DNA of 64,000 nucleotides from Dehalococcoidia bacterium. Its GTDB lineage: Bacteria > Chloroflexota > Dehalococcoidia > Lucifugimonadales > CATOSD01. Under the pieces are notes generated by a model. The model did not search any database and was not told the origin of the DNA. It saw only the letters and a program-made list of their open reading frames with translations. The position numbers and the translations under genes were made by a program. The stretch spans positions 615,170 through 679,169 of the forward strand of contig OZ242014.1 in NCBI GenBank assembly GCA_965204815.1, in the 5' to 3' direction. Numbering within the stretch: the first letter of the stretch is position 1; the number at the start of each line of letters is the position of its first letter. Below, in pieces: positions 5,968 through 44,360 of the stretch.

Positions 5968-6213
5968 TCATTCTGTGAAGATGCGGGCGAGGCCCAACCC
6001 CTGGGCCAACTCAAGCAGGGCCATCATGTGCTCCGTGTTGGGACGGCCCCGGCCCTCTTTCCAACGCCAAACGGTGTAGCGGTATGTGCCAATGCGCCGG
6101 GCGATCTCCGACCATGACAGGCCGGATTCCACCTGAAACCGTTTCAGGCGCTCCGGGAAGTCTTCGGGGAAATTGTAGGTTGGTATGTTGTAGTCAATTC
6201 GCTGTCTCGGCAT
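5968..6213 (-). CDS. Small helix-turn-helix DNA-binding protein (81 aa)
   Basis: ORF-track peptide contains ..ESGLSWSEIARRIGTYRYTVWRWKEGRGRPNTEHMMALLELA.., a typical HTH of the transposase/terminase-associated type. It occupies the place where copy 2 carries its regulator gene. Confidence 0.6.
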   Translation of the reverse strand: MPRQRIDYNIPTYNFPEDFPERLKRFQVESGLSWSEIARRIGTYRYTVWRWKEGRGRPNTEHMMALLELAQGLGLARIFTE

Positions 6214-6353
6214 CGAGCCGGTCCGTTACCAGGATTCATCAGTGGCTACCCCTGTACGGGAGAGGCTGCACCCCGGACCTCTCCATCTGTGCGGCCTCTT
6301 TTGCGTTTCGGAGCGGCGCGTACCGACCGACCTCTGGCTCGCTGCTATCGGCC

Positions 6354-7373
6354 CTACTCCCCGCGGCTCCAGCCGGAGCCGAACAGGTAGCCGTCGTACT
6401 CCGCCACGAAGACCCGCAGCGACTCCGACTCCACCCAGACGCCGGACTCGGTGGCCTCGAACGTCTCATCGCCGAACAGGTCTTGGACGTCCCCGCCGAT
6501 CTTCGTGATGTCGGAGTGGCCCACGATCTTGCCGTCCGGGCCGCCGATGAAGGCGAACCAGTGGCCGTCGATGGTCTCGGCGGCGTTGTAGTAGTCGACG
6601 GCGGCGTCCAGTCCCGCCAGGGCGCTTCCCGGACTGGCGAAGTAGGTCATGGTCCCCGTCAGCCCAACGTCGCGGTACTTGTCCACCGCGACGGACACCA
6701 GTTGCTTGGTGAAGGCGTCGGCGTCGATGTACCAGCCGGAGGCGAAGAGCAGCCCGTCGCGGCGCTCCACCCACACGTTCTTCAGCTCGAAGTCGCCGGA
6801 GCCGATGCCTCCGCTCTCCGGGTTGCGGTACACGTAGGACACCCACGCGCCGTCCTCCGTGGCGGCAAGCATCGCGGGCCCGAACTCGTAGCCGTTGGCG
6901 TCGGTGCCCACCCAGCCATTCAGGTCCAGGCCCAGGCGGCCCGGGTCCGGGTGGGCGATGAACTGGTCGTGCTCGTCGATGATGAACACGTACCACTGGC
7001 CGTCCACGCTATCCTCGCGGTTGTAGTGCGCCACCGTGGCGTCGAGGCCCTGGCTCTCGTAGCGGGCGATGGCGCTCTCGACGACGTACTGGGTGTACTC
7101 GGCGGGGGCGGACTTGGAAGGTATACCGGCGATGGCGGCCCGGACGATGGCCTCGACCTCGGCGCGGGTCAGGCCCTGCTGCGCGGGCATGGCCGCCGTG
7201 TCGTCGTTGCTGATGGACCCCGCTGACTGCGCTTCGTCGGGCAGGTCGGCCATCTCCGCCCGCACGATCTCCTCCACCTCTGCGCGGGTCAGTCCCGCGT
7301 CGCCGTCCCCACAGGCGGCGAGCAGCGTTGAGGCGAAGAGCAGGAAACCGGCTATGGCAATGGCGCGCTGCAT
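6354..7373 (-). CDS. Extracytoplasmic lipoprotein with two Cache-like (PDC fold) sensor domains and no output domain
   Basis: Lipobox FASTLLAAC. Two repeats of the pattern DGxWYVFIIDEHDQFIAHPD / DGHWFAFIGGPDGKIVGHSD, each followed by a ..Y(V/I)..GW tail, as is typical of Cache domains. Confidence 0.65.
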   Translation of the reverse strand: MQRAIAIAGFLLFASTLLAACGDGDAGLTRAEVEEIVRAEMADLPDEAQSAGSISNDDTAAMPAQQGLTRAEVEAIVRAAIAGIPSKSAPAEYTQYVVESAIARYESQGLDATVAHYNREDSVDGQWYVFIIDEHDQFIAHPDPGRLGLDLNGWVGTDANGYEFGPAMLAATEDGAWVSYVYRNPESGGIGSGDFELKNVWVERRDGLLFASGWYIDADAFTKQLVSVAVDKYRDVGLTGTMTYFASPGSALAGLDAAVDYYNAAETIDGHWFAFIGGPDGKIVGHSDITKIGGDVQDLFGDETFEATESGVWVESESLRVFVAEYDGYLFGSGWSRGE

Positions 7374-7384: not shown

Positions 7385-8653
7385 CTAGCCGCCGCCGACG
7401 CAGGCGTTGCCCCCGTCATTGTCTTGTATGGCGAACGTGAACTTCTCGTGTACCGCCCGGTCCGTGCCCGGCCACATGGTCATGGCCAGGATTATGGTCT
7501 CGCAGCCCTCCTCCTCGCTATCGTCAATCGGCTTGACCGGCGTTGAGGCCGTCGTGGTGCCGGCGGCGAACGTGGGAAGACTGATGCGCTGGTAATCAGA
7601 AGAGTCGGCGGTGCCGCCCCGCCTCCATTGCAGCGAGGTCTCCTCCGTCACAGGCTTGCTCAGGGTCAGGGTGAGACAGCCGACGTTGGGCAGCCTCAGA
7701 TTGACCGTGTCGCCGGCCGACCAGTTCAAACCAAAGCCCGCGCCACTGATCTCGGTCAGGGTTAGCGTGCTGTCCGAGTCGGTGAGCGCCACGTCCACAC
7801 CGGCCCCGGCTATACCGTCATCCGCAAGGCGGATCCTGGCATTGCCGGCGTACAGCGTGAGGCACGATTGGAGGTTTTGCGGAATCGCCTTGTCCAGCTT
7901 CAGCGTGAGCCTTTCCGGGTACGTGGTGATGTAGGAGATGGCTTCGACCCAATACCTGACCCCGTCAAACGTGAAGTCTCTGCGCGTGAGCGCGCTCCTG
8001 CAACGGGCGCTGGAATTGCTGTTGCTGTCGTCGCAGCCAACTTTTGCCGGGGCAGTCGTGCTCAGGTCCTGCACCGTCAGGGTGGGCGACCAGAGATCAT
8101 GGGCGCTGTTCGTCTCCCAGTCCTCTTTGACCGGCTCATCAGGGGAAAAGGATGCGGTCAGCGTCTGGACTGGCTCGGTTAGCCTCACCTGCACCGTTTG
8201 GCCGGCCGTCAAGCTCAGACCGGGGTTATTCCAGGATATTTGGTTATTGGTGCCAGCAAGACTGTTGCGAGTGCCCTCAGCGAGGGCGAACTGTCTGTCG
8301 CCGACATACAGTGTCAGCGCCGACTTGAGGTTGTTCGGGATCGTTTTGTCGAGTGTGAATAAGAGTGGACTGCCACCGGGCTGCGTCATGATTGTCTTGA
8401 CCACATAACTCTGCCCCGAGTATGTGAAGGAAGTGTGCTGGAGTGATCCGATGGCACCGTCCCAGAAACCGCGAATACCAGCGACTGTTCCCCCCACCGT
8501 AATCGTGCTTGACCAGATTTCCCTGGTGCTGCCGTCGCTGGACTGAGCCTGGGCGCGCGGTGCCTGGTTGACAAAGAAGACCGCCAGCGCAACGAGCGCG
8601 GCGGCCAGGAGGAGGAGCGGGGAGAGGCGTGAGAGGCGGAGTACCCGAGTCAT
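7385..8653 (-). CDS. Secreted 422-aa protein: signal peptide, two copies of the unassigned ~130-aa domain, C-terminal Calx-beta-like domain
   Basis: The N-terminus MTRVLRLSRLSPLLLLAAALVALAVFFVNQAPRAQAQ is paralogous to the giant protein signal peptide. Internal repeats run WSSTITVGG..FTYSGQSYVVKTI..LFTLDKTIPNNLKSALTLYVGDRQFAL..ISWNNPGLSLTAGQTVQVRL and WSPTLTVQD..FTFDGVRYWVEAI..LTLKLDKAIPQNLQSCLTLYAGNARIRL..LNWSAGDTVNLRL. The C-terminus ..GTADSSDYQ..IDDSEEEGCETI..FAIQDND is Calx-beta-like. RBS GGGAGG sits 6 nt upstream. Confidence 0.8.
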   Translation of the reverse strand: MTRVLRLSRLSPLLLLAAALVALAVFFVNQAPRAQAQSSDGSTREIWSSTITVGGTVAGIRGFWDGAIGSLQHTSFTYSGQSYVVKTIMTQPGGSPLLFTLDKTIPNNLKSALTLYVGDRQFALAEGTRNSLAGTNNQISWNNPGLSLTAGQTVQVRLTEPVQTLTASFSPDEPVKEDWETNSAHDLWSPTLTVQDLSTTAPAKVGCDDSNSNSSARCRSALTRRDFTFDGVRYWVEAISYITTYPERLTLKLDKAIPQNLQSCLTLYAGNARIRLADDGIAGAGVDVALTDSDSTLTLTEISGAGFGLNWSAGDTVNLRLPNVGCLTLTLSKPVTEETSLQWRRGGTADSSDYQRISLPTFAAGTTTASTPVKPIDDSEEEGCETIILAMTMWPGTDRAVHEKFTFAIQDNDGGNACVGGG

Positions 8654-9052
8654 GCCGGGCCTCCCGCCATGTTCAGATGGTGAAAATCGGGGGGGGGGGG
8701 GGGGTAACGTGCATGGCCGCCCTCAAAAGGCGGCGCATCCTGCTGTTGCTTTCGTTGAACATGGCTGTCGTGCCTCCTTATCGGCCAGCGTTGCGCTTCA
8801 TTCGGTCGGGATGGACTCGCCGACCCCGGCGGAGCGGTTGGTTCCATCTCCCGTGCCCAGAGTGCGGCGGCGGCCTGTGTCGCCCCGCGGAGCGGAGACA
8901 CACAAACCCATCTAAACTCTACCAAACTACCTGTAGCCTCAGCGTATCTTTCAAGGGTTCTTTTGTGTACTATGGTGTAACATGCTGTCGGATTCCTGAT
9001 GTTGCCGGGGCCGTGACCAGGCACAACTGCGTACAGGTCGGGAAGGAGGATT
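8541..9052. repeat. Copy 2 of the ~0.5 kb duplicated signal-peptide plus divergent regulatory segment
   Basis: See copy 1. Frame-shifting indels between the copies show the conservation is non-coding: the 5507..5884 and 8629.. peptides agree only in patches. An AT-richer core identical in both copies (..ctaaactctaccaaactacctgtagcctcagcgtatctttcaagggttcttttgtgtactatggtgtaacatgctg..) probably holds the divergent promoters. Confidence 0.85.
8689..8704. repeat. G16 homopolymer (C16 on the minus strand), 36 nt upstream of the 422-aa secreted-protein ATG
   Basis: Direct count in ..gtgaaaatcGGGGGGGGGGGGGGGGtaacgtgcatg.. Confidence 0.9.
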
Positions 9053-9054
9053 CG

Positions 9055-11436
9055 GTGGGTTCAGACCAGCTCTACCGTGAGAACGAGGCGCTGCGGGAGC
9101 GCCTGTCGCGCCTCAGCGCAGCCAGCCAACACATCAACGAGAGCCTGGACGTGGACACGGCGCTGCGGGCAGTGATGGACAGCGCCCGCTCCCTGACGCG
9201 GGCACCCTTCGCCTCGATCATCACCCTGGACGATTCCGGGTGGGTGGAGGAGCACCTGGTTCTGGGATTCGAACCCGGCTACTTGGAGCGGCTCTGGCAG
9301 GCTCCCCAGGGGCAGACGTTCTTCGAGTACCTGAACGCCCTGCCGGGACCGCTGAGGGTCGGCCCACTGGAGGAGTTCACCAGGTCCATCGGTCTTGAGG
9401 AGTTCCGCTCGCCCGTGGCTCTCACCGCCTTCATGGCGGCCCCGATACTCCACCAGGGCGTGCGCTCGGGCCATATCTACGTGGGGAGCGACGAGCTGGG
9501 CCGGGAGTTCACCCAGGAAGACGAGGAGACGCTGGTGATGTTCGCCTCACAGGCGGCGCTGGTCATCGCCAACGCCCGCGCCTACCGGGAGGAGCGGCAG
9601 GCCAGGGCCGACCTGGAGACGCTGGTCAACACCTCGCCGGTGGGCGTGGTGGTCTTTGACGCTCGTACGGGAATGCCGGAGTCCGCCAACCGGGAGGCCA
9701 GACGGCTGGTGGAGGGCCTGCTCGACGAGGGCCAGCAGGCGGAGGACATCCTTGACGTGGTGACCTGCGTGCGCGGCGACGGCAGTGAGGTCTCCCTTCG
9801 GGAGTTACCCCTGGCGGAGGTGCTCGGCTCAGGGGACACGGTGCGGGCCGAGGAGATCGCGCTCAGGGTACCTGACGGGCGCAGCGTCAGCCTCCTGCTC
9901 AACGCCTCTCCCATCCACGCCGAGGACGGGCACGTGGCGTCCTTCGTCGTCACCATGCAGGATCTGACACCCCTCGATGAGCAGGAGCGGCTGCGGGCCG
10001 AGTTCCTGGCCATGGTCAGTCACGAGCTGCGGATGCCCCTGGCCACGGTCAAGGGCTCCACCACCTCCCTGCTCAGCGGCCCCGACATGGACCCCGCCGT
10101 GGCCGCCCAATTCCACCGCATCGTGGACCAGCAGGTCGACCACATGCAGTACCTCATAGGCGACCTGCTGGACGTGGCCCGCATCGAGACGGGGGCGCTG
10201 CCCGTGGACCCGGAGCCGTCGGAGCTACGCCTGCTGGTGGAGGAGGCCAGGAGCAGGTTTGTGACCGGCGGCGCAGGGAACCCCCTGGACGTGGAGATGG
10301 CGGCGGACCTGCCGATGGTCATGGCCGATAGGCGGCGCATCGTCCAGGTGCTGGGCAACCTGCTCTCCAACGCCGCAGGGTATTCCCCCGATGGGTCGCC
10401 CATCACGGTGAGGGCCGCGCGGGACGGCGTCCACGTCGCCGTCTCCGTCGTTGACCGTGGCAGAGGCATACCGGCGGAGCTTCTGCCGGAGCTGTTCCGC
10501 AAGTTCTCGCGGGCGTCCGGCGCGGCGGCGACGTTGGGCGTCGACGGGTCGGGCCTGGGTCTCGCCATCTGCAAGGGCATCGTCGAAGCCCACGGGGGCC
10601 GCATCTGGGCGGAGAGCGACGGGCCGGGCCTGGGGGCGCTCTTCACCTTCACGCTGCCGGCGGTTGAGCGGTCAGCGATTGAAGCTCCCGACCCTGCATC
10701 CACCGGCTCGACGCGCACGGCCCGGGTCCGCGTCCTGGCCGTGGACGACAACCCCCATGACCTGCGGTACGTCCGCGACGTCCTCACACGCGCGGGCTAC
10801 GCGCCCATCGCGACCGGAGACCCCGGCGACGTGCCACGCCTCATGGAGGAGGAAAAGCCTCACCTCGTCCTGCTGGACCTGGTGCTGCCTGGGAGCGACG
10901 GCATCGAGCTGATGAACGACATACGGAAGACGGCGGACGTGCCGGTGATCTTCCTGTCGGTCTTCGGCCAGGACGAGACCGTCGCCAGGGCTCTCGACAT
11001 GGGGGCGGCCGACTACCTGGCCAAACCCTTCTCGCCCACGGAGCTTGCGGCGCGGATCAGGGCGGCGCTCAGGAAGCGGCTGGAGCCGTTCCAGGGTGAG
11101 CCGTCGGGACCCTACGCGGTCGGAGGGCTGAGCATCGACTACGCCCTGCGCCGGGTGACGCTGAACGGGGAGCCGGTGGAACTGACGGCCACGGAATACG
11201 CGGTGCTCTACGAGCTTTCGGTCCACGCTCCCCGCACGCTGACCCAAACCGTGCTGCTACAGCGAATCTGGGGGCCGGAGAAAGTCGGCGAGTCCTGGCT
11301 GCTGCGGAACATGGTGAAGCGGCTCCGCCGCAAGCTGGGCGACGACGCAGCAGACCCCAGGTTCATCTTCACCGAACCCCGCGTCGGCTACCGGATGGCG
11401 AAGGGGGAGACGGGCGACATAGAGATTCAGGAGTGA
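9055..11436 (+). CDS. Soluble hybrid sensor histidine kinase fused to a complete OmpR-family response regulator (GAF-PAS-HisKA-HATPase_c-REC-winged helix)
   Basis: GTG 9055 lies in-frame after AGGAGGA. H-box FLAMVSHELRMPLATVKG, N-box LGNLLSNAAGYSP, G-boxes DRGRGIP and GSGLGLAICKGIVEAHGG. REC: VLAVDDNPHDL..LVLLDLVLPGSDG..DYLAKPF. wHTH: LTATEYAVLYEL..MVKRLRRKLGDD..TEPRVGYRM. No hydrophobic TM segment is seen. Confidence 0.85.
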   Translation: MGSDQLYRENEALRERLSRLSAASQHINESLDVDTALRAVMDSARSLTRAPFASIITLDDSGWVEEHLVLGFEPGYLERLWQAPQGQTFFEYLNALPGPLRVGPLEEFTRSIGLEEFRSPVALTAFMAAPILHQGVRSGHIYVGSDELGREFTQEDEETLVMFASQAALVIANARAYREERQARADLETLVNTSPVGVVVFDARTGMPESANREARRLVEGLLDEGQQAEDILDVVTCVRGDGSEVSLRELPLAEVLGSGDTVRAEEIALRVPDGRSVSLLLNASPIHAEDGHVASFVVTMQDLTPLDEQERLRAEFLAMVSHELRMPLATVKGSTTSLLSGPDMDPAVAAQFHRIVDQQVDHMQYLIGDLLDVARIETGALPVDPEPSELRLLVEEARSRFVTGGAGNPLDVEMAADLPMVMADRRRIVQVLGNLLSNAAGYSPDGSPITVRAARDGVHVAVSVVDRGRGIPAELLPELFRKFSRASGAAATLGVDGSGLGLAICKGIVEAHGGRIWAESDGPGLGALFTFTLPAVERSAIEAPDPASTGSTRTARVRVLAVDDNPHDLRYVRDVLTRAGYAPIATGDPGDVPRLMEEEKPHLVLLDLVLPGSDGIELMNDIRKTADVPVIFLSVFGQDETVARALDMGAADYLAKPFSPTELAARIRAALRKRLEPFQGEPSGPYAVGGLSIDYALRRVTLNGEPVELTATEYAVLYELSVHAPRTLTQTVLLQRIWGPEKVGESWLLRNMVKRLRRKLGDDAADPRFIFTEPRVGYRMAKGETGDIEIQE

Positions 11437-11438
11437 TC

Positions 11439-12248
11439 ATGAACGACCCCCACGTGAAGGCCATCCATTACCTCATCGAACATGACGATTCGGTCGACTA
11501 CGGGGACGCTGCACCCTTGGATTGTGAGGACGACCTCTTCCGCATCCAGGCCGACGAGGGCAAAGTGGTCCTAGAGCCCAAGAGTCATTACGCGACGGCG
11601 GCAGAGGCAAGGAACGCGGTTGACGGACTCGTGAAGCGGTGGGAGTTCAAGGCGGCCCTTCGCGCGCGGTCCAGCGAATTCAGGCTCTCATATGTGGGAG
11701 TCGACATCATCGACCGCAACCCGCCGCCCCCGACGCCCGGGGTGGTGACGGTGCGCCCCGTGACCGTCCGGGCCGGGGTGCCCAAGGCGCGGGGCAAGAT
11801 TACCAAGATGCCGTCGGCCTATCCCGCTCCTCACCAGGGCGCGGCCATTGATCCCGCTGACCCCGACGCATCCTTCATGCTATACCGACTCGACCTCTAT
11901 CGTCAGGGAAGAGAGCCGCTGGCGGGCGTCGCCAACGTCTGCCTCACGGTGCTGGAGTACTCCGCCCTGCAGGCGGCCGGAGGCGGCGGGAACAAGCGCA
12001 AGTCGGCGGCCACCCACTACCGGATTGAAGAGACGGTTCTGAAAAGAGTTGGGATGCTCTCGGCCAGTAGGGGCGGCCCCGTCGCTCGGAAAGCTGAGGG
12101 CCGCGGCGACCCATTCACGCAGGAGGAGACACGCTTTCTGGAAGCGGCAGTGGCCGCCTTCGTTCGAAGGGCTGCGGAGAAGGCGGCCGACCCCAATGGA
12201 AAGCCATCCGTCATCACGATGGCCGACCTACTCAAGCCGACCAAGTAG
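11439..12248 (+). CDS. Hypothetical protein (269 aa), no family recognised
   Basis: ATG 11439 sits 5 nt after CAGGAG and 3 nt after the kinase stop, so it is probably co-transcribed. It is high-GC like the core genome. No TM segments or motifs that I can assign. Confidence 0.55.
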   Translation: MNDPHVKAIHYLIEHDDSVDYGDAAPLDCEDDLFRIQADEGKVVLEPKSHYATAAEARNAVDGLVKRWEFKAALRARSSEFRLSYVGVDIIDRNPPPPTPGVVTVRPVTVRAGVPKARGKITKMPSAYPAPHQGAAIDPADPDASFMLYRLDLYRQGREPLAGVANVCLTVLEYSALQAAGGGGNKRKSAATHYRIEETVLKRVGMLSASRGGPVARKAEGRGDPFTQEETRFLEAAVAAFVRRAAEKAADPNGKPSVITMADLLKPTK

Positions 12249-12291
12249 GAACGATCCAGAAGACGAAGGACTAACCATAGCAGGAGAATAG

Positions 12292-13182
12292 ATGACAATA
12301 TCTGAACGCACTCTCTCGCGGTGGAGTCACCACCAGGCTTCCACGGCCTTTACGCAGGCGCACCTGCCCATCCGGGAGGCCCTGAATGCCCACAATCGAC
12401 TGTCGCAGTTCAAGTACGAGGTCTTTCTTCAAGGCTCGTACAAGAACGACACTAACCTGGGCGGGGACAGTGACGTCGATGTGGTCGTGCGGCTGTCATC
12501 GAAGCTAAAGCCCGCGGTGGCCGACCTCACCGGAGAACGGCTTCAGGAGAATGGTTCTCACAAGTTCGTCCACCGGCAATGGAAGTCCTTCCGGGACGAG
12601 GCGCTGAAGGCGCTGCGGGCCAGGTTCGGGACGGCCGCGAAGAGCGGCCGCAAGACCTTGAAGGTGCCGAAGGGCAAGATCCCGGCGGATGCCGACCTCG
12701 TGGTCACGGTGAGCCATAGACAGGGAATCGGCTTATATCTCCCTGACGAGAGGCGTTGGGTCGTCAGCTTTCCGCAGCAGCACCATGAGCGGGGGTTGAA
12801 GAAGGAAAAGGCCACAAACATGCGGTTCAAGAGAACCATCCGCATGTTCAAGGCAGCCCGGAACCGGCTGGTCGAGAAGAAGGTGCTCAGGAAGGAGGAC
12901 GCTCCCTCCTATTTCATCGAGTGCCTGCTCTATAACGTTCCCGACAGTCTGTTCGCAACGAAGCTAGCGCCGACCTATACGGGCGTCCTCGGCTGGCTCA
13001 AGACCGCGAAGCTCAAGGACTTCAAGTGCCAGAACGGACATGTGCCGCTATTTGGACGAGGGCGAGAACAGTGGACCCAAGAGAAGTCGCGGGTCTTCGT
13101 CAAGGCGTTGCAGGCGCTGTGGGATGCTGGGGGATGCCTACGGGGAGGATGCGGGAAGTCGCAACTCCTGTCTGATGACTAG
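12292..13182 (+). CDS. SMODS / cGAS-DncV-like (CD-NTase-like) nucleotidyltransferase
   Basis: Pol-beta NTase catalytic signature LQGSYKNDTNLGGDSDVDVVV (G-S..D-x-D) plus a third acidic strand ADADLVVTV. The C-terminal helical part SYFIECLLYNVPD is typical of this family. GC is lower than in flanking genes. Confidence 0.65.
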   Translation: MTISERTLSRWSHHQASTAFTQAHLPIREALNAHNRLSQFKYEVFLQGSYKNDTNLGGDSDVDVVVRLSSKLKPAVADLTGERLQENGSHKFVHRQWKSFRDEALKALRARFGTAAKSGRKTLKVPKGKIPADADLVVTVSHRQGIGLYLPDERRWVVSFPQQHHERGLKKEKATNMRFKRTIRMFKAARNRLVEKKVLRKEDAPSYFIECLLYNVPDSLFATKLAPTYTGVLGWLKTAKLKDFKCQNGHVPLFGRGREQWTQEKSRVFVKALQALWDAGGCLRGGCGKSQLLSDD

Positions 13183-13409
13183 ACAACACCGGAGCCTCAT
13201 GGACTCCCAGTTGAATCGGGTGAACCTGTAAAGCTCATCCGAATCTCAAAGACGGTTCTATCAATCGTCACGTTCGGTTGGTTCTCATAGGTACGGTCAC
13301 ACATGTGCGCCTAAATGGATCCGGTCGGATGCTACCAGCGTCGCCTAGACGTCAACAGAGCCGGCCGCAATACCCTCGGCTGGGGCGCCGATAGTCAGTG
13401 CCCAGTGAT

Positions 13410-13446
13410 AACCCGTTTTGGGATATTCCAAAACGGGTTTTATCAT
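13410..13446 (+). promoter_or_regulatory. Perfect 12-bp inverted repeat (candidate C-box-like operator) overlapping a putative promoter of the HTH-nuclease operon
   Basis: AACCCGTTTTGG (13410-13421), gatatt, CCAAAACGGGTT (13428-13439). Putative -35 TTGGGA (13418-13423), 17 nt spacer, -10 TATCAT (13441-13446). It sits 42-71 nt upstream of the likely TTG start at 13481. Confidence 0.6.
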
Positions 13447-13480
13447 ATTGCCGCAAGTCCCTGATTGGTCGAGGCGGTAT

Positions 13481-13744
13481 TTGAAGTCGATATTCACGGA
13501 CGAATACAAGGCGTTCCTACAGCGGCTCGCCTCGGCTCGCAGAGAAGCTGGGTTGACACAACACGATCTGGCAAGCCGTATCAATAGGCCCCAGTCGTTC
13601 GTTTCCAAATATGAGCGGGGGGAGCGGCGACTAGACGTCCTCGAGTTCGTGATGGTGTGTGGCGTATTGAGTGTGGACCCTTGCAGCATCGTCCGCGAAG
13701 TTGAGAGCCGCTTGTTAGGACAGGAGCACAATGAGAGTTTGTGA
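13481..13744 (+). CDS. XRE-family HTH protein, controller (C-protein)-like, 87 aa
   Basis: ..ARREAGLTQHDLASRINRPQSFVSKYERGERRLDVLEFVMVCGVL.. is a canonical XRE HTH. TTG 13481 is preceded by GAGG; the ORF-track start 13418 would overlap the operator. The gene lies directly upstream of the nuclease gene. Confidence 0.7.
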   Translation: MKSIFTDEYKAFLQRLASARREAGLTQHDLASRINRPQSFVSKYERGERRLDVLEFVMVCGVLSVDPCSIVREVESRLLGQEHNESL

Positions 13745-13810
13745 CGCTCTTGATTCTATAGATGTGCCTCAGGATTCGAGGCCTCCCTGTAAACGGTGGG
13801 TGAGAAGCCG

Positions 13811-15052
13811 ATGACGTTCCTTCTTGGCCCTAGCCGTTCGGCATACAGTTCCCTTCTGGAAGTGCCGACTCGGTTCGAAATCCGCAACGGAGTTATAGTC
13901 GTTGCCTGGGCTCGCCGATCTGGTGTCGGTATTCTCCACGCTGCTTTAGGCGAGAGCCTGCGCAACGTTGATGTCGTTGTCGGGATGGCGAACCGGGGTA
14001 CTTCTGCCGAGGCCCTGGCGCTCCTCCGATCCTTATCGCGGAGAGTGTTCGTCTACCACAAGCACCATCTCCAGACCTTTCATCCGAAGGTCTACCTCTT
14101 CGATGATGGTCAAAGTCCGCCTTCTGATGCGCTTCTGCTGGTGGGTTCGTCGAACCTGACCGGCGGCGGTCTCTACCAGAACATTGAAGGGAATCTAGAG
14201 TTGGCACTACGGCCGACTGATCACGAGAAGGATAGGGCAACTTACGATTCGGTCGTCCAAGAGGTCGGCGGTTTGATGGCGTCGCCTTTCTGTGAACAAC
14301 TTGTCGATGACGACCGCATCAGGCAGCTTCTTGAAGACCGTTATGTATCCAATGAGGCAACGCTGGCACGAAAGCGTCGCAGAGATAACGGCGAAGTTGC
14401 CCGGCGAGGTGAACGTCGTAAGAGACCTGAGGCTCCCCCTCCTCCCCTTCCGCTGTTCTCACTACCTCCACTACCAGTGTCCTTCGGAGGTCTTGAGACG
14501 GAAGAGGCCGAAGTCGAACCCGCACACCCCGAGGACCAGGCACTCGGTGGCATTGATCTAACCGAACACTTCTACGTTCGCACTCTGACTATAAACGACG
14601 TGAACAAGCTACACGGTGTGACCCCGGGCACAGCTGAGTGGGATATAGGCGTGACTGCCCGAAATGCGCGACCGGCCTTCTGGGGTTGGCCAGACCGGTA
14701 CGCCAATGTTGTCCGAACGCTTCCAAGGCTCGAGTGGCGTATAACGGGCTCCCTCCGGTCCTCATTGACTGGAGATGAGGGAGTTGATGTTGAAATATCT
14801 ATCTGGTTTCGTGAGGAGCGCCCTGGGCACGCCGCGGAGCACCGTTTGAGAATTGGCCCCAGGGCGACCCTTGTCAATGCAACGCCCAACAACTTTGATA
14901 CAACCTCGTTGGTGGTGTTGGAACGATTGCCAGTGGGCAGGACCCATACCTTCTTCGTGCAGTTACTCACTGAACAGGACGCGGGGTACGACGACTACTT
15001 CCGGTACTTGACTCAGGATAGACCGCGCCATCGCTACGGCTACGGGCCATGA
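13811..15052 (+). CDS. PLD-family (single HKD) nuclease with a Pro/Arg-rich linker and a C-terminal B3/EcoRII-N-like putative DNA-binding domain (BfiI-like architecture)
   Basis: HKD motif FHPKVYLFDD..LLLVGSSNLTGGGL (HxK(x)4D..GSxN). The C-terminal half ..HFYVRTLTINDVNKLHG..VDVEISIWFRE..TSLVVLERL.. resembles a pseudobarrel DNA-binding domain. ATG 13811 is preferred over GTG 13796 because its upstream sequence is purine-rich. Confidence 0.7.
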   Translation: MTFLLGPSRSAYSSLLEVPTRFEIRNGVIVVAWARRSGVGILHAALGESLRNVDVVVGMANRGTSAEALALLRSLSRRVFVYHKHHLQTFHPKVYLFDDGQSPPSDALLLVGSSNLTGGGLYQNIEGNLELALRPTDHEKDRATYDSVVQEVGGLMASPFCEQLVDDDRIRQLLEDRYVSNEATLARKRRRDNGEVARRGERRKRPEAPPPPLPLFSLPPLPVSFGGLETEEAEVEPAHPEDQALGGIDLTEHFYVRTLTINDVNKLHGVTPGTAEWDIGVTARNARPAFWGWPDRYANVVRTLPRLEWRITGSLRSSLTGDEGVDVEISIWFREERPGHAAEHRLRIGPRATLVNATPNNFDTTSLVVLERLPVGRTHTFFVQLLTEQDAGYDDYFRYLTQDRPRHRYGYGP

Positions 15053-15137
15053 TTCCTAGTTCGTTCGGCTAAACCCGCTTCGCCACGAGTTGCCCCAGAG
15101 TAGCGGTAACAACGGGGGAGTTCAACGTGGCGCCATC

Positions 15138-16961
15138 TCAGAGGGCATCGAGATTTGACTGCCCCTGCGGTCCGAGATTCTCTAGGAGCTCCAGCACGAA
15201 TCGGGAGGGACCGTTTTCAAACTGTCTGCCGCTCGGTATCTCGTACCAACCTGAGTACATCAAGTATACGACCAGTCTGGCCCGCGTTATTCCAACATAC
15301 AGCACTCGACGTGCTTCAGCGACTCCATCAGGGACTGTGGCGTTATACCGAGGCAGACGTCCCTCCTCAAGGCCAGGGACAATAATAGCGTCGTATTCTC
15401 GGCCCTTGCTGCTATGGAGCGTGGTCAGCGTGACTACGTGGGGGTGCCCTCTACCGATAGCAAAGTTACCAAGTGTGAGCTTCTCCAGTGACTTTCCATG
15501 CTCACATTGACTCCGAATCAGCTTCCAATTGGCTAGAGCCTCTGGTTGCCTAGGATGGTCCGCAAGGAATGTAGTTACGTCTATGCCATCATTGAGTCGG
15601 TCCAGCCACTCTGACAGAGGCATTTCGGCATTGGAGAGCGATTGTAGGAACGCGTGAAACTGGCTACGGTCAGCCAAATCCGCCCAGGCTACAGATATGT
15701 TTGCATCAGTCCTGAGCTGCACCCAATCCTGATATACATCTTCGAAGGCTGGGTCTAGCGTAGACTCTGGGTAGCTAGTGCACCAGGCAGCCACATCTTC
15801 CAGCCATCGTGTGAACGGCGTCCTGGGATACCGCCTATCGCGTTCTCCAGCGAACTCTATCCCTGCATCGGTGAGGGCTCTGCTCAGGGCGGGAACATCC
15901 ATGTAGTCTACGTACAAGATCGCGATTTGGTCATTCGGGATACCTCGCTCATTCAGAGCAGGGACGATTCCACTGGCTATCGTGGTGGCTTGCGATGCCA
16001 GCCCACCTTCATCCTCAACAAAGAGGAGATCACCCTCAGTATCGTCCCTCGCAGATCTGTACCCTCTAGGTTCAGGAGGCGCAAGGGCAATCTCGGAACC
16101 GTCGATGATGCGCTGAGCACACCTGTAGTTCATGTCGAGACGCACGGCGGAAACTTCGGGGTCGCTGGCCAACTCCCCAAGATACTTGGGGTCAGCTCCG
16201 GCGAATCCATAAATGGACTGGTCCTCGTCACCCACTGCAAACACCGTGATGCTAGTGTTTGCCATGATTTCTCGAACGATCCGATGCAAGGGATACCCGA
16301 GGTCTTGGTATTCATCCACTACGAGGTACGGGAAACGAGCCTCCAACGCCTCTCGAACGAATGGCTGGGTCCTTATGAGATCGAGGCCGATCAAGACCAT
16401 GTCATCGAAGTCAATTAGGCCCCGGTGATGGAGGGCAGTTTCATAGGCGTCAGCAACCCGCTCAATCTGCTGATCCTGGTATCCCCCGGTCAGGCGGGTC
16501 CTTCTGTGCAGATTGATGGGCTCGCGCCAATCCGACGCGTTGCTTCGAATCCTAAGGCTGGCCAGGGCTTCCGTAATCGCCCCTGTCACATCCTGACCGG
16601 TCGCAATGTTCGGGTTGGCTGGCAGATCCTCCCTAAACAAACGTCCGAACGGGCCGACGATGCACGACATGCAAAAGCTATGCACCGTGCCCAGAAACAA
16701 CTGTTCCCCGGGTCGGAGCCCTCTGTTGACGAAGCGCTTCCGCAGTTCTCGCACGCACTCATTGTTGTAGGTAACACAGGCGACCCCTCGCGGACCGGCT
16801 ACTCGGTGGCGAAGTAGATAGGCCACTTTGCTGACAAGCACTCTGGTCTTGCCGCTGCCGGGACCTGCGAGTACTGCGCAGTGCCCCTCAGCTAATAGTG
16901 CCTTCTGCTGGAGATCATTCAGGCCGTCGAGGCCGTCACCATGGCTTTCAATCTGAGTCAT
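15138..16961 (-). CDS. gajB: Gabija GajB-like UvrD/PcrA/Rep-family SF1 helicase
   Basis: Walker A AGPGSGKT, Walker B VVDEYQD, late helicase motifs TLHSSKGREYD and LYVGITRAR. Overlaps the upstream OLD-family gene by 14 nt. Confidence 0.8.
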   Translation of the reverse strand: MTQIESHGDGLDGLNDLQQKALLAEGHCAVLAGPGSGKTRVLVSKVAYLLRHRVAGPRGVACVTYNNECVRELRKRFVNRGLRPGEQLFLGTVHSFCMSCIVGPFGRLFREDLPANPNIATGQDVTGAITEALASLRIRSNASDWREPINLHRRTRLTGGYQDQQIERVADAYETALHHRGLIDFDDMVLIGLDLIRTQPFVREALEARFPYLVVDEYQDLGYPLHRIVREIMANTSITVFAVGDEDQSIYGFAGADPKYLGELASDPEVSAVRLDMNYRCAQRIIDGSEIALAPPEPRGYRSARDDTEGDLLFVEDEGGLASQATTIASGIVPALNERGIPNDQIAILYVDYMDVPALSRALTDAGIEFAGERDRRYPRTPFTRWLEDVAAWCTSYPESTLDPAFEDVYQDWVQLRTDANISVAWADLADRSQFHAFLQSLSNAEMPLSEWLDRLNDGIDVTTFLADHPRQPEALANWKLIRSQCEHGKSLEKLTLGNFAIGRGHPHVVTLTTLHSSKGREYDAIIVPGLEEGRLPRYNATVPDGVAEARRVLYVGITRARLVVYLMYSGWYEIPSGRQFENGPSRFVLELLENLGPQGQSNLDAL

Positions 16962-18753
16962 GGCCTAGCTGACCTATGACGTGTTGAATCGCCCCCTTGA
17001 TGTAGGCTGGGCAACTCTCCATAGTGACTTTCTCGGCGAGCCTTTGAGCAAATCTTCCCTTGCCGATACTCTCAATCCGCCTCAAGATAGTCTGAGCATC
17101 GTCTTCACTCACATCAGGACCTGCGTCCACCAAATCCTTGAACTGCTCTAGCCGTCTTTCCGAGGTACCGAGTTCTTTGAAGGACTCACACATCTGGTGG
17201 CCTAGACCGCATTTCAACAGGTCGATCTCCAGAGTGTGCTGACCTACGAACACCCCCGCCGCTCCCAGCCGTTCATAGAGTCCGTTCCAGTCACGCTCTT
17301 CAAACGCCTGATGTAACGCCTCCACCTCTCCGAGATTTGCCCCATCCGCCACACGTATTCCCCGAGCCAATCCTCTGCTCAGGATCTCTCCCTGCCTCTC
17401 CGTCCAGTCTCCATCCGTGGCAATGACAAATGGAATAGAAAGACCCTTGCTACCCGCAAGCTTGGCGTAGGGAGCGAAGTCAGTACCATGAACGCTACAA
17501 ACAGTGATCCCGTACTCATCGAGGGGGTAGCCTAAGACTTCCGCGTACGCTGGGATGAGGAACAACTCCGCTGCGCCTTCAACAAAGATGATGCCTTTAG
17601 CAAACAGCAGTTCAGCACGTGTGGCGTCCAAGTAGCGTTCCAAGTCTGCGATCTCTTGGGCATCTAGTCCTGCTGTCACAACTGACTTGCCGCCACTACC
17701 GTTCGACTCACCGCCATCTCGTAGGAGGAGAATGCTCGACAACGGGGCGACACTCGCTACATGGGGCGAATGCGTAGTAAGAATTACGGGAGCTTCTCTC
17801 CTCAGGAAGTCCCGAAAAAGCAGTCTTTGGAGATGGGGATGGAGGTGGGCTTCCGGCTCCTCTATACCTAATATGGTCGCGGCCCGCTCTGATGACTTCT
17901 GTTTTTCCTCCAGTTCTATAGCCAGAAGAAGTAGATACAGGACGTTGCTGACTCCCAGGCTTAGATCACCTACCGGCCGTTTGAACTGCCCGTCTCCGTA
18001 CAGCCTCAGTCCCCTGAGCAGACGGGCTGGCTGGCTGGACGCGAAGCCTAGTGACGGATCAATCGCAATCACGCCGCCGATCATCTTCTGGAGTCTTTGT
18101 TGAATGCCTGTCTCCAGAGCTTGCACATCTTGCTCGGAAAGCAACTGCCCGGTGGCAGAGTCCAATGCTGTGGCAACTGCTTGCAGGGTATTGTCAGCAA
18201 CCGATAGACGGTCGACGAGAGGTCGCAAGGGAGACCTTCGCCATGAAGACAGATCGCCCTCAGCGTCTCTAAGGGCAGGAAGGACTTCCAAGGCCAACCA
18301 GCGCCGCTCTCGGTAGCCAACCTGGTTCGCCTCGTTCTCTCCCCCGAAAATCACGAATTCGTAGTCACCGATAGTGGGAGGGCGATCCTTTGGCAAGGGA
18401 CTCTTCGGTCGAAACTGATAGGTAAGGCGCGCCGTGTCCGGAGGACCGCCTTTTACCAGGTACTGCTGCAGGATCGAGAAGAGATCCTGATTCTTCTTGA
18501 AGTCTGTCAGCTCAATGTAGACCTCAATGACTTCGTGTGCCTTGACCGGGTCAGCTAATCCGTCCCAGAAGTCGTCCTGTCGAAGATGCCGAGCGGAGTC
18601 TGGCAGAGTAGGGTCGAGGAGGAGTCGGAGTGCAAACAGCAAGTTGGACTTGCCGACATTGTTTTCTCCTACAATTACCAGCTTGGGCCCCAGATCAACG
18701 TCAAGATAGCGGAAGTTCCTTAGATTGGTGACCCGAATGTGGCAAATGTGCAT
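16948..18753 (-). CDS. gajA: Gabija GajA-like OLD-family ATPase plus TOPRIM endonuclease
   Basis: N-terminal ABC-type ATPase with Walker A GENNVGKSN. C-terminal TOPRIM with IIFVEGAAELFLIP (Glu) and VIATDGDW (DxD). Pairing of a class 2 OLD nuclease with a UvrD-like helicase defines Gabija. Confidence 0.8.
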   Translation of the reverse strand: MHICHIRVTNLRNFRYLDVDLGPKLVIVGENNVGKSNLLFALRLLLDPTLPDSARHLRQDDFWDGLADPVKAHEVIEVYIELTDFKKNQDLFSILQQYLVKGGPPDTARLTYQFRPKSPLPKDRPPTIGDYEFVIFGGENEANQVGYRERRWLALEVLPALRDAEGDLSSWRRSPLRPLVDRLSVADNTLQAVATALDSATGQLLSEQDVQALETGIQQRLQKMIGGVIAIDPSLGFASSQPARLLRGLRLYGDGQFKRPVGDLSLGVSNVLYLLLLAIELEEKQKSSERAATILGIEEPEAHLHPHLQRLLFRDFLRREAPVILTTHSPHVASVAPLSSILLLRDGGESNGSGGKSVVTAGLDAQEIADLERYLDATRAELLFAKGIIFVEGAAELFLIPAYAEVLGYPLDEYGITVCSVHGTDFAPYAKLAGSKGLSIPFVIATDGDWTERQGEILSRGLARGIRVADGANLGEVEALHQAFEERDWNGLYERLGAAGVFVGQHTLEIDLLKCGLGHQMCESFKELGTSERRLEQFKDLVDAGPDVSEDDAQTILRRIESIGKGRFAQRLAEKVTMESCPAYIKGAIQHVIGQLGHDSD

Positions 18754-18950
18754 GGTAGTGCTACTGTCCTAGGCGCTTGGGGCCTGAGGTGTCGGCTTTG
18801 CATTTGCTGGCATTGCGCTGGGATGTCGTCCGCACTCGTTGAATTTGCATTTGGGGTCTTGGCAGAGAGTCCGCAATTGGCAATTACGCCCGCCTCCCTC
18901 ACCGAACCCTTTAAGCTGGCAGGCCAACTCCGATGGCAGCGGGAGGAGGT

Positions 18951-20537: not shown

Positions 20538-20539
20538 GA

Positions 20540-21697: not shown

Positions 21698-21882
21698 GAG
21701 ATCCTGTCTTGGTTCGCTGGCGACTTGGGTTGACCATCGAACACACTCGCGTCAAGATGGTCTCGGATTAGCCGAGCTATCAGTGTGCTCTTCTTGAAGC
21801 CTCTCTCTTGGCAATACGCGTCGAATCGGGCGAACTCCTTAGAGTCCAAGAGAACGCTGATCTTGACACGCTTGCGGCTCAT
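21694..21882 (-). CDS. Ribbon-helix-helix (CopG-like) protein, first gene of the methyltransferase operon
   Basis: MSRKRVKISVLLDSKEFARFDAYCQERGFKKSTLIARLIRDHL shows a beta-strand followed by two helices, as expected for RHH. The start is moved to ATG 21882. Confidence 0.6.
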   Translation of the reverse strand: MSRKRVKISVLLDSKEFARFDAYCQERGFKKSTLIARLIRDHLDASVFDGQPKSPANQDRIS

Positions 21883-22140
21883 GAAGGCACCCAACGCCGG
21901 TAGATATAACGCAATTATCCTCAAAAGTCAATACATGTGCTCAGTATTGCGCACTCGAAGGGGCGCCCTTCATTGGGAGGGAACGTCGGTGTCCATGACG
22001 AACACAGGCCGGTGGCCTTGATCGGCTTCTCAGGCCTAGCAATGGTCCGGGGTGGTCCTGTGTACCGCCGAAATAGCTCTACAGAGTGCCTAGCCACATC
22101 TCGAAGACGGTGCCATCTACCGTCCCCTCCGGCCCCCCAC

Positions 22141-43891: not shown

Positions 43892-43938
43892 CTCAACCCT
43901 CACCCTAACCCTCCCCCAGTCCTGGGAGAGGGGACTGG
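43892..43938. repeat. Dispersed hairpin repeat family B copy
   Basis: ctcaaccctcaccctaaccctccccCAGTCCtgggagaggGGACTGg. Confidence 0.75.
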
Positions 43939-44213: not shown

Positions 44214-44360
44214 TGGCCCGCAGGACATCAAAATTATGGTTGCCGAGGTGGGCTAGAGCCAGCGTGCGCGGGTGAGCATCTCGCGGGCTACGTCGGTGAC
44301 GTGGCGGCCGGGGCCGTTGTCGACGGTGAAGTTCTCGATGGCCGCTGGCTTCATATCTTC

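What the first reader, a model, noticed from the sequence alone, without database searches (positions are those of the whole stretch)
11439..13182. Effector-less SMODS/CD-NTase-like nucleotidyltransferase next to an unknown protein
The 296-aa NTase has the G-S..D-x-D plus third-Asp signature of cGAS/DncV-like enzymes. None of the canonical CBASS partners is adjacent: no SAVED/STING sensor, patatin, 2TM, Cap2/Cap3 or NucC. Its neighbours are a 269-aa protein of no recognisable family (upstream, high-GC, 3 nt after the kinase stop) and, after a 230-bp gap, the HTH-PLD nuclease pair. There are two non-exclusive readings. Either the NTase is an orphan or minimal system, or the PLD nuclease's C-terminal domain is a nucleotide sensor. 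The second reading would make NTase-HTH-PLD a CBASS-like system with an effector class I do not recall among canonical CBASS effectors.
Basis: inference. Interest (0 to 1): 0.55.

Follow-up and report, generated by a model that had tools for sequence, protein, structure and literature searches.

The report
Orphan cGAS-like cyclase that lost Cap15

Summary
Window 12292-13182 encodes an intact clade-E CD-NTase (CdnE). It matches crystallised RmCdnE at E 4.7e-64 and a PADLOC cyclase model at 1e-78, and the GS/DxD/D residues are invariant. It belongs to a shallow, monophyletic, mostly Chloroflexota clade (at least 53% identity, dN/dS about 0.22).

No member of this clade has a Cap15 gene nearby: 0 of 31 loci, and none in the 64-kb window. 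All 11 testable relatives at 44% identity or less, including RmCdnE itself, have Cap15 starting within a few bases of the cyclase stop.

The clade also carries Ser instead of Asn at lid-1 (RmCdnE N166, where N166S switches the product from cUA to c-di-AMP). DNA conservation starts at the ATG and ends at the ancestral stop codon, and the neighbours on both sides are a changing set of defence and mobile genes.

The HTH-PLD pair is not a CBASS effector. PLD homologs elsewhere always sit beside homologs of the two methyltransferases at 18951-21697, so this is a restriction-modification module, split here by a Gabija insertion.

The upstream 269/271-aa protein is a real family with no known fold. 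It accompanies the cyclase in only 3 of 31 loci, and elsewhere it pairs with a trypsin-like protease.

Verdict: an orphan CdnE, a new variant of a known kind. Its receptor and product remain unknown.

The parts
12292..13182 (+). Clade-E CD-NTase (CdnE), 296 aa. The conserved core is codons 1-281 (12292-13134). The ancestral stop is changed (TGA to TGC), giving a 15-codon read-through tail to TAG at 13180-13182. Catalytic residues are G48 S49, D61, D63 and D135. Lid-1 is Ser159.
   Evidence: DNA conservation across 22 loci runs at 0.65-0.9 inside the ORF and 0.2-0.35 outside it. Median dN/dS is 0.22.
11439..12248 (+). unk271 family protein (269 aa from ATG 11439, 271 aa from GTG 11433). It has two domains: an N-terminal beta-sheet plus helix (1-95), a Pro-rich linker, and a C-terminal helical bundle (140-265). 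No known family or fold. It is an occasional upstream companion of the NTase.
   Evidence: no family; 198 homologs; AF2 pLDDT 86; no PDB fold match, best E 0.089. It is adjacent to the NTase in W, L036 and L059 only.
12249..12291 (+). 43-nt spacer between unk271 and the NTase, with a GGAG Shine-Dalgarno-like site. It is conserved only among the three loci that have the unk271-NTase pair.
8629..11436 (+). Hybrid histidine kinase / response regulator (GAF-PAS-HisKA-HATPase-REC-Trans_reg_C). It is a core-like gene whose 3' end borders the variable region. Its stop overlaps the GTG start of unk271 by 4 nt.
   Evidence: It lies upstream of the NTase in 12 of 31 loci.
13410..13439 (.). 30-nt palindrome (AACCCGTTTTGGGAT/ATTCCAAAACGGGTT) overlapping a promoter-like site. 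It sits at the left edge of the restriction-modification module and is the likely operator of the HTH controller. It is not part of the NTase unit.
   Evidence: (I12)
13418..13744 (+). XRE-family HTH, a controller (C-protein-like) of the PLD restriction enzyme. The true start is probably about 20 codons downstream of 13418.
   Evidence: 86% identical HTH in front of the PLD in L035
13796..15052 (+). PLD/HKD-family restriction endonuclease. The motif residues H91xK93...G112S113xN115 are invariant. It has a beta-rich C-terminal domain (about 250-413).
   Evidence: always beside two MTases
15138..18753 (-). Gabija system: GajB 15138-16961 and GajA 16948-18753. It is inserted between the PLD gene and its methyltransferases.
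   Evidence: GajB 4e-188, GajA 2e-211; insertion mapped against L035
18951..21924 (-). Two N6/N4 DNA methyltransferases (MT1 18951-20735, with the real start probably further in, and MT2 20540-21697) plus a small RHH-like ORF at 21694-21924. These are the modification half of the PLD restriction-modification module.

Best explanation
SHOWN. The gene at 12292-13182 is a catalytically intact clade-E CD-NTase. It belongs to a monophyletic lineage, mostly Dehalococcoidia and Caldilineaceae, that descends from CdnE-Cap15 type I CBASS operons. This lineage has lost the Cap15 membrane effector and carries Ser instead of Asn at the lid-1 specificity position. The ORF alone is conserved and under purifying selection. 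Its flanks are interchangeable defence and mobile cassettes. Here those are unk271 upstream and, downstream, a PLD-type restriction-modification module carrying a Gabija insertion. That module is a separate and more recent acquisition.

INFERRED. Like other CdnE enzymes, it probably switches on during phage infection; CdnE03 is activated by a structured phage RNA. Because of the Asn-to-Ser change with an open, RmCdnE-like donor pocket, it probably makes a purine-containing cyclic dinucleotide (c-di-AMP- or cGAMP-like) rather than cUMP-AMP. With no linked effector, that signal would have to act on a receptor encoded elsewhere in the genome, or on one not recognisable as a receptor.

I put about 0.9 on the descriptive part (orphan CdnE, not partnered with the PLD) and about 0.35 on the unlinked-receptor mechanism.
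For: Identity as a CdnE:
- PADLOC cyclase 1.2e-78.
- RmCdnE 6E0K 4.7e-64 over the full length.
- PF26305 CD_NTase_C.
- The catalytic residues are invariant in all 115 family members, apart from single exceptions at S49; D59 and D133 also have one exception each.

Effector loss:
- A Cap15 HMM searched against the six-frame translation of the window and 59 loci hits only beside the distant relatives.
- 11 of 11 relatives at 44% identity or less with enough downstream sequence have Cap15 (PF18153) directly after the cyclase.
- One of those 11 is RmCdnE itself; L038 matches 6E0K at 287 of 287 residues.
- 0 of 31 members at 53% identity or more have Cap15.
- No adjacent transmembrane protein recurs.
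- No Pfam or PADLOC family occurs in more than 4 of 24 neighbourhoods.

Specificity switch:
- Lid-1 is Ser in every solo member and Asn in every Cap15-linked relative.
- RmCdnE N166S makes mainly cAA instead of cUA (PMC10442399).
- The donor-pocket residues C246/E259 equal RmCdnE C252/E265.

Monophyly: the solo clade is monophyletic and nested inside Asn-lid sequences.

Selection: median dN/dS is 0.22 over 171 pairs.

ORF-only conservation.

Separation from the PLD module.
Against: - No receptor has been identified, and whole genomes could not be searched.
- A CdnE03 cyclase without Cap15 gives no phage protection in S. aureus, where it served as the 'incomplete operon' control (PMC10686824). 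A solo cyclase therefore needs something else in order to defend.
- 5 of 24 genome copies carry internal stops or frameshifts. These may be real decay or long-read assembly errors.
- The lid-1 rule is a predictor, not proof. Ser-lid CdnEs also occur scattered outside this clade (23 of 150 representatives), and CdnE03-Cap15 systems already use cGAMP.
- The Ser switch and the Cap15 loss map to one branch, so they amount to a single evolutionary event and not a replicated correlation.
Confidence: 0.55

Rival explanations
1. unk271 and the NTase form a two-gene system. unk271 would be a novel effector, sensor or inhibitor that works with the cyclase, and in other genomes with a trypsin-like protease instead.
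For: - The pair recurs with a conserved 43-44-nt spacer in three different contexts: W, L036 and L059.
- In L059 the pair lies between an integrase and a serine recombinase.
- Both genes have the same intermediate GC3, 0.77-0.78.
- unk271 is always followed at 16-47 nt by a small enzyme gene: the NTase, Trypsin_2 or an Asp-protease.
Against: - 28 of 31 solo-clade loci lack unk271, including all 24 species-representative genomes.
- In some loci the NTase directly follows the kinase (L002, L040) or has opposite-strand neighbours.
- unk271 occurs without the NTase in at least 6 contexts.
- It has no transmembrane segment, no nuclease or known nucleotide-binding motif, and no PDB fold match.
- Its start is translationally coupled to the upstream kinase, not to the NTase.
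Confidence: 0.15
2. The solo NTase is a decaying relic of a CdnE-Cap15 operon with no current function. It persists only because it sits between recombination-prone cassettes.
For: - 5 of 24 copies are disrupted.
- A cyclase alone is non-protective in the one tested CdnE system.
- No partner was found.
Against: - dN/dS is 0.22 with dS about 0.8.
- Catalytic and lid residues are invariant in 115 of 115 sequences.
- The clade spans identities from 53% to 100% and two Chloroflexota classes while keeping a full-length ORF.
- DNA conservation is confined exactly to the ORF, which is the signature of selection on the protein.
Confidence: 0.12
3. The NTase acts as a shared alarm for whatever defence cassette lies next to it. 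A weaker version of the same idea is that it merely serves as the conserved recombination anchor of a defence-island hotspot.
For: - Variable DNA begins at the stop codon and at the ATG in every locus.
- The neighbours are overwhelmingly defence or mobile genes: C5 MTases, AIPR, DruA, KAP NTPase, Gabija, PRTase-CE/ORC-CDC6-like genes and recombinases.
- Orientation relative to the kinase is fixed.
Against: - None of those neighbour systems is known to respond to cyclic nucleotides.
- They are complete, autonomous systems elsewhere; for example, the PLD restriction-modification module occurs without any NTase.
- The anchor role explains the location but not the purifying selection on the active site.
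Confidence: 0.08
4. One reading: NTase-HTH-PLD is a CBASS-like system in which the PLD protein's C-terminal domain senses the nucleotide signal.
For: Only the physical proximity in this one window.
Against: - PLD homologs (43%, 53% and 83% identity) never sit beside an NTase. They always sit beside homologs of MT1, MT2 and the RHH ORF.
- The module's homology boundary is at 13408.
- GC3 steps from 0.77 to about 0.6.
- 0 of 30 other NTase loci carry the PLD.
- The structural matches are PLD restriction enzymes.
Confidence: 0.02

Closest known systems
RmCdnE-Cap15 type I CBASS (Rhodothermus marinus plasmid pRHOM17201; RmCdnE = PDB 6E0K/6E0L, a cUMP-AMP synthase)
   Same: - Same enzyme family and fold, about 43-45% identity over the full length.
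- Identical catalytic GS/DxD/D residues.
- Same open donor pocket (Cys/Glu).
- Same size, a minimal cyclase of about 281-288 aa.
   Different: - RmCdnE is followed 3 nt later by a 194-aa Cap15 (PF18153 plus PF23471). The window enzyme and its whole clade have none.
- Lid-1 is Asn166 in RmCdnE and Ser159 here.
Staphylococcus CdnE03-Cap15 CBASS (cabRNA-activated, cGAMP-producing; PMC10686824)
   Same: A clade-E cyclase at about 30-32% identity. It provides the best-supported activation model, in which a structured phage RNA binds a basic surface.
   Different: It has Cap15, and the cyclase alone does not protect. Activation of the window enzyme by RNA is untested.
EmCdnE (PDB 6E0M) and the RmCdnE N166S mutant: di-purine-producing CdnEs
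   Same: The prediction of a purine-containing cyclic dinucleotide rests on these enzymes (PMC10442399). EmCdnE matches the window enzyme at E 2.9e-24. The Ser at lid-1 here corresponds to the N166S substitution in RmCdnE.
   Different: The relationship to EmCdnE is more distant than to RmCdnE. The operon context of EmCdnE was not examined here.
DS-2 (patatin + cGAS-like + diadenylate cyclase; DefensePredictor, PMC13092281; NCBIfam NF053871)
   Same: The DS2_2 nucleotidyltransferase model matches over its full length (216.7 bits).
   Different: - The score is below the equivalog cut-off of 350 bits.
- DS-2 has a phospholipase effector and a DAC partner, and neither is present here.
BfiI / NgoAVII-type PLD-family restriction-modification systems (for the HTH-PLD neighbours)
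   Same: - HKD/PLD nuclease domain followed by a beta-rich C-terminal domain.
- Two methyltransferases and a controller HTH.
- Best structural hits are SauUSI and the NgoAVII R-protein.
   Different: - Sequence similarity to BfiI is not significant (E 1.1).
- The fold of the C-terminal domain could not be assigned separately.
- A Gabija pair is inserted inside the module.

Membership tests
CD-NTase (cGAS/DncV-like nucleotidyltransferase), clade E | Pol-beta-type NTase core with the GS ... [DE]x[DE] ... [DE] catalytic residues | tested here: met
   G48 S49, D61, D63 and D135 align to RmCdnE G47 S48, D60, D62 and D129. They are invariant in all 115 family members, apart from one sequence at S49.
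CD-NTase (cGAS/DncV-like nucleotidyltransferase), clade E | Full-length homology to structurally characterised CdnE enzymes, including the C-terminal helical domain | tested here: met
   6E0K RmCdnE at 4.7e-64 over residues 2-281, and weaker hits to LpCdnE, EmCdnE, EfCdnE and ClCdnE. PF26305 CD_NTase_C is precomputed for P0001 and its homologs. PADLOC Cyclase PDLC00788 matches at 1.2e-78.
CD-NTase (cGAS/DncV-like nucleotidyltransferase), clade E | Synthesis of a cyclic di- or oligonucleotide | not testable with these tools
   This needs an enzyme assay. Only a prediction from lid-1 Ser159 and the donor pocket is available.
CBASS system (any type) | A linked effector (Cap) gene that senses the cyclic nucleotide | tested here: not met
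   - No effector family matched the adjacent genes.
- The Cap15 HMM found nothing in the window or in 31 clade loci.
- No family occurs in more than 4 of 24 neighbourhoods.
- No recurrent adjacent transmembrane protein.
CBASS system (any type) | Protection against phage | not testable with these tools
   An experiment is required.
Type I CBASS, CdnE-Cap15 subtype | Cap15 (2 TM helices plus a beta-barrel CDN receptor) immediately downstream of the cyclase | tested here: not met
   Present in 11 of 11 relatives at 44% identity or less and absent in 31 of 31 at 53% or more.
NCBIfam NF053871 (DS2_2 anti-phage nucleotidyltransferase, equivalog) | Score at or above the curated cut-off (350 bits) | tested here: not met
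   216.7 bits.
PLD-family type II restriction-modification module (applies to HTH-PLD, not to the NTase) | HKD catalytic motif in a PLD fold | tested here: met
   H91, K93, G112, S113 and N115 are invariant in 43 homologs. PLDc_2 scores 27.4 bits against a cut-off of 27. Foldseek gives SauUSI at 5e-8, NgoAVII R at 2e-6 and Nuc at 1.5e-3.
PLD-family type II restriction-modification module (applies to HTH-PLD, not to the NTase) | Conserved linkage to cognate DNA methyltransferase(s) | tested here: met
   Homologs of MT1 and MT2 sit convergent to the PLD gene in L033, L034 and L035. Nucleotide collinearity with L035 is interrupted only by Gabija.
PLD-family type II restriction-modification module (applies to HTH-PLD, not to the NTase) | C-terminal DNA-recognition domain (B3-like in BfiI and NgoAVII) | tested here: inconclusive
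   The model shows a confident beta-rich domain at 250-413. The whole-chain alignment to 4RCT has rmsd 17.6 Å. No domain-only search was possible.
Gabija (applies to 15138-18753) | GajA (ATPase plus TOPRIM) next to GajB (UvrD-like helicase) | tested here: met
   GajA at 1.9e-211 and GajB at 4.2e-188 over their full lengths, with overlapping genes.

The most novel reading that the evidence does not exclude
The Ser-lid, Cap15-less CdnE clade is a cGAS-like enzyme that has been cut loose from a dedicated effector. On sensing infection it would make c-di-AMP or cGAMP that acts on unlinked receptors, possibly the cell's own c-di-AMP network. That would give growth arrest without a suicide effector, or raise a genome-wide alarm shared by the surrounding defence island. 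It would be the first CBASS-derived cyclase shown to signal in trans.
Probability: 0.2. Interest if true: 0.8.

Novelty: new variant of a known kind. Interest (0 to 1): 0.5.

Why it matters
CBASS is defined by a cyclase plus a linked effector, and annotation tools discard cyclases that stand alone. This is a coherent lineage under purifying selection, with hundreds of metagenomic members. In it the effector was lost, and the residue known experimentally to set pyrimidine versus purine specificity changed on the same branch.

If the enzyme is active, there must be a receptor encoded elsewhere or a different mode of action. That makes a direct question testable with one protein and one point mutant (S159N): can bacterial cGAS-like signalling work in trans, or plug into housekeeping second-messenger pathways?

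The check also corrects the tempting but wrong idea of a PLD nuclease as a new CBASS effector.

Tried and rejected
- **PLD as CBASS effector:** rejected on neighbourhoods, homology boundary and composition.
- **Island att sites or tRNA:** no convincing direct repeats flank 12-22 kb and there is no tRNA in the window.
- **Rfam:** no riboswitch or other RNA family in the window.
- **Cryptic small membrane effector beside the NTase:** only sporadic, non-recurrent transmembrane ORFs.
- **Upstream 'no-family' proteins as diverged unk271:** hhalign of the unk271 profile against the L001 254-aa protein gave probability 0.5%. The other upstream genes are unrelated DUFs: DUF2971, DUF6615, DUF6602, DUF5677, an epimerase and a pentapeptide-repeat protein.
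- **Viral contigs:** scans with single sequences found nothing. The alignment-based scan found only two distant, Cap15-linked relatives.
- **Literature:** searches for orphan, standalone or effector-less CD-NTases gave no relevant description. Whiteley et al. 2019 could not be retrieved, so the N166S result is cited from PMC10442399.
- **Promoter and terminator scan around the NTase:** no more sites than chance.
Full report
**1. What is in the sequence**

- A hybrid histidine kinase / response regulator ends at 11436.
- A 269/271-aa ORF lies at 11433/11439-12248.
- After a 43-nt spacer comes a 296-aa ORF at 12292-13182.
- After about 235 nt comes an XRE-type HTH (13418-13744), then a PLD-domain protein (13796-15052).
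- Further right lie GajB and GajA (15138-18753, minus strand), two N6/N4 methyltransferases (18951-21697, minus strand) and a small ORF (21694-21924, minus strand).

Bulk GC falls from about 0.67 to about 0.55 between roughly 12 and 22 kb. Codon third-position GC gives a sharper picture:

| Genes | GC3 |
|---|---|
| Core genes | 0.84-0.93 |
| unk271 and the NTase | 0.77-0.78 |
| HTH, PLD, Gabija and both MTases | 0.58-0.64 |

**2. The NTase is a genuine clade-E CD-NTase**

- It matches a PADLOC CBASS cyclase model over its full length (1.2e-78).
- It matches the crystallised Rhodothermus marinus CdnE (6E0K, 4.7e-64, residues 2-281) and more weakly four other CdnE structures.
- It and its homologs carry the precomputed PF26305 CD_NTase_C domain.
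- NCBIfam's DS2_2 model matches at 216.7 bits, below its 350-bit cut-off. DS-2 is a patatin + cGAS + diadenylate-cyclase system (PMC13092281).
- G48-S49, D61, D63 and D135 are invariant in 115 close homologs, apart from one sequence at S49.

**3. The family and its neighbourhoods**

The big protein database holds 2,816 hits. The best 120 are all 75-88% identical and 281 aa long. Twenty-four species-representative genomes carry the gene, 22 Dehalococcoidia MAGs and two Caldilineaceae MAGs.

Across these loci, nucleotide conservation starts at the ATG and stops at codon 281. It runs at 0.65-0.9 inside the ORF and 0.2-0.35 outside. Homologs end ...GGGGG(A/T)TGA. The window has GGGGGATGC, so the stop is lost and 15 extra codons are read. 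Median dN/dS over 171 pairs is 0.22 with dS about 0.8, and five of 24 copies have internal stops or frameshifts.

The neighbours are not conserved.
- The kinase lies upstream in 12 of 31 loci.
- The PLD, HTH, Gabija genes and MTases appear in none but the window.
- The upstream slot holds unrelated genes: DUF2971, DUF6615, DUF6602, DUF5677, an epimerase or a pentapeptide-repeat protein. In some loci it holds nothing, or the neighbours are on the opposite strand.
- A Pfam and PADLOC tally of 141 neighbouring ORFs found no family in more than four of 24 loci. The families present are defence or mobile genes: C5 methylases, AIPR, DruA, KAP NTPase, resolvases and integrases.
- The small HTH genes that often follow the NTase belong to the downstream cassettes, as the window case shows (see section 5).

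**4. The lost partner**

The decisive comparison came from more distant relatives.

On plasmid NC_015970 the NTase is identical to crystallised RmCdnE at 287 of 287 residues. It is followed 3 nt later by a 194-aa protein with Cap15_TM and Cap15_CD_rec domains (4.9e-35). The same arrangement holds for two NTases on a Natronomonas plasmid, a Halobacteriales MAG, five metagenome contigs and two viral contigs. That is 11 of 11 relatives at 44% identity or less with enough downstream sequence.

I built an HMM from ten of these Cap15 proteins and searched it against the six-frame translation of the 64-kb window and all 59 fetched loci. It hits only those loci and none of the 31 loci whose NTase is at least 53% identical to the query. 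No recurrent transmembrane ORF replaces Cap15.

In a neighbour-joining tree the Cap15-less sequences form one clade nested among RmCdnE-like sequences. In the 50%-identity representative library this clade collapses to a handful of clusters.

**5. A specificity switch on the same branch**

The residue aligned with RmCdnE Asn166 (lid 1) is Ser159 in the window protein. It is Ser in 115 of 115 family members and in every Cap15-less sequence examined, and Asn in every Cap15-linked relative.

Asn166 hydrogen-bonds the uracil of the acceptor UTP, and the N166S mutant makes mainly c-di-AMP instead of cUMP-AMP (PMC10442399). The donor-pocket pair C246/E259 matches RmCdnE C252/E265, the open, purine-accepting state.

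The inference is a purine-containing cyclic dinucleotide. There are caveats.
- Ser-lid CdnEs also occur outside this clade (23 of 150 representatives).
- The co-occurrence of the switch with Cap15 loss is one evolutionary event.
- CdnE03-Cap15 systems already use cGAMP.

**6. The HTH-PLD pair is a restriction-modification module**

The PLD family has 190 members with both domains conserved. In a Bosea genome (43% identity) and two other genomes (53% and 83%), the PLD gene is followed convergently by homologs of window MT1 and MT2 and the small RHH-like ORF. In the closest one it is preceded by the same HTH. No NTase is present in any of them.

At the nucleotide level L035 aligns to window 13408-15055 and 18952-21934 at 79-80% identity. 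The 3.9 kb in between is Gabija. The module's left edge is the 30-nt palindrome and promoter-like site at 13410-13446, which lies 226 nt beyond the NTase stop.

The HKD residues are invariant. The AlphaFold model (pLDDT 89.5) best matches the PLD domains of the restriction enzymes SauUSI and NgoAVII. The C-terminal beta-rich domain could not be assigned on its own.

**7. The upstream unknown protein**

It is a real family of 198 proteins, 44-91% identical among the 120 listed. It has no match in Pfam, PADLOC, NCBIfam or PHROGs. The two-domain model is confident (pLDDT 86), and no solved fold resembles it.

It precedes the NTase, with a conserved spacer, in the window, L036 and L059. In L059 the pair lies between an integrase and a serine recombinase. 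In L027, L037, L056 and L057/58 it is instead followed by a well conserved Trypsin_2 protease, and in L029-32 by a small aspartic-protease-like gene.

Its start overlaps the kinase stop by 4 nt in three genomes. In L057/58 a duplicated kinase 3' fragment sits just before it, which suggests that the kinase 3' end is an insertion site.

A functional unk271-NTase pairing in this sublineage cannot be excluded. It is not a property of the NTase clade as a whole.

**8. Mechanism**

Shown:
- The gene is an intact CdnE under purifying selection.
- It descends from CdnE-Cap15 operons.
- It has no linked effector.
- It carries a changed specificity residue.
- It sits among exchangeable defence cassettes.

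Inferred:
- Activation on infection, by analogy with CdnE03 and cabRNA (PMC10686824).
- Synthesis of a di-purine cyclic dinucleotide.
- Action on an unlinked or unrecognised receptor.

Against an autonomous role, CdnE03 without Cap15 does not protect S. aureus. The rival explanations are a two-gene unit with unk271, a relic, an island alarm or recombination anchor, and the PLD-effector idea. Each is scored in the report sections.

**9. Novelty and verdict**

The enzyme class is known, and the HTH-PLD-MTase and Gabija systems are ordinary. Three things appear to be undescribed in the literature I could search:
- a coherent, conserved clade of Cap15-derived CdnEs that stand alone;
- a lid-1 Asn-to-Ser change on the same branch as the effector loss;
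- conservation that stops exactly at the ORF ends.

I rate it a new variant of a known kind, with interest 0.5. It is worth one enzyme assay and a full neighbourhood census.

Noticed in passing
window 15056-18951: A complete Gabija pair (GajB 15138-16961, GajA 16948-18753, both minus strand) is inserted inside a restriction-modification module, between the PLD endonuclease and its first methyltransferase. The uninterrupted module in L035 has only about 40 nt at this position.
   Followed up: partly
window 21694-21924 (-): A small ORF upstream of MT2 has a ribbon-helix-helix-like sequence (KISVLLD...STLIARLIRDHL). It is co-conserved with the PLD and MTase genes in L033-L035 and is probably a second regulator of the module.
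   Followed up: partly
window 13410-13446: A near-perfect 30-nt palindrome overlaps the only sigma-70-like promoter match in 11.2-14 kb. It lies exactly at the left homology boundary of the restriction-modification module and is the likely C-box operator. The annotated TTG start of the HTH ORF lies inside it, so the real start is probably downstream.
   Followed up: partly
window 11433-11436; L027 5001-5004; L056 4001-4004; L057/L058 3812-4001: The unk271 start overlaps the stop of the hybrid kinase by 4 nt in several genomes. In L057/58 a duplicated C-terminal kinase fragment sits directly upstream of unk273, after an inserted 169-aa gene. This suggests the kinase 3' end is an integration site and that unk271 is the first gene of an inserted element.
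   Followed up: partly
L027 5001-6510; L037 1357-2866; L056 4001-5510; L057/L058 4001-5516: unk271 homologs are followed at 16-58 nt by a 211-225-aa Trypsin_2 protease that is 82-85% conserved between loci. This is a recurrent two-gene unit of unknown function in defence-island contexts.
   Followed up: partly
L038 (NC_015970.1 15684-22819): The crystallised RmCdnE and its Cap15 sit between a 900-aa DNA methyltransferase and a 989-aa DEAD/DEAH helicase, with overlapping or near-abutting gene ends. This is a CBASS pair nested in what looks like a restriction-modification or helicase operon.
   Followed up: no
L009, L016, L019, L020, L023 (NTase at about 6001-6846): Five of 24 genome copies of the solo NTase carry internal stop codons or frameshifts. 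I could not tell whether these are real pseudogenes or long-read assembly errors.
   Followed up: no
window 13132-13182: The ancestral TGA stop of the NTase is TGC in this genome, giving a unique 15-residue C-terminal tail (CLRGGCGKSQLLSDD). The variable downstream DNA begins at this very position.
   Followed up: yes
window 60800-64000: A low-GC stretch (0.55-0.57) has no ORF longer than 155 aa and no Rfam match. It may be a degraded or non-coding island, or a gene running off the window end.
   Followed up: no
window 43900-48300: Another low-GC patch holds a 645-aa Trypsin_2 plus RCC1-repeat protein (45167-47104, minus strand) and several ORFs with no Pfam match.
   Followed up: no
L025 4918-6768; P0364: A Halobacteriales MAG carries two CdnE paralogs in tandem before one Cap15. 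A 614-aa representative protein (P0364) matches the NTase in two stretches, so it may be a fused double cyclase.
   Followed up: no
L036 3066-8926: Downstream of another unk271-NTase pair lies a MerR HTH, a 636-aa protein, a PRTase-CE protein and an ORC-CDC6-like protein, which looks like another defence cassette in the same slot.
   Followed up: no
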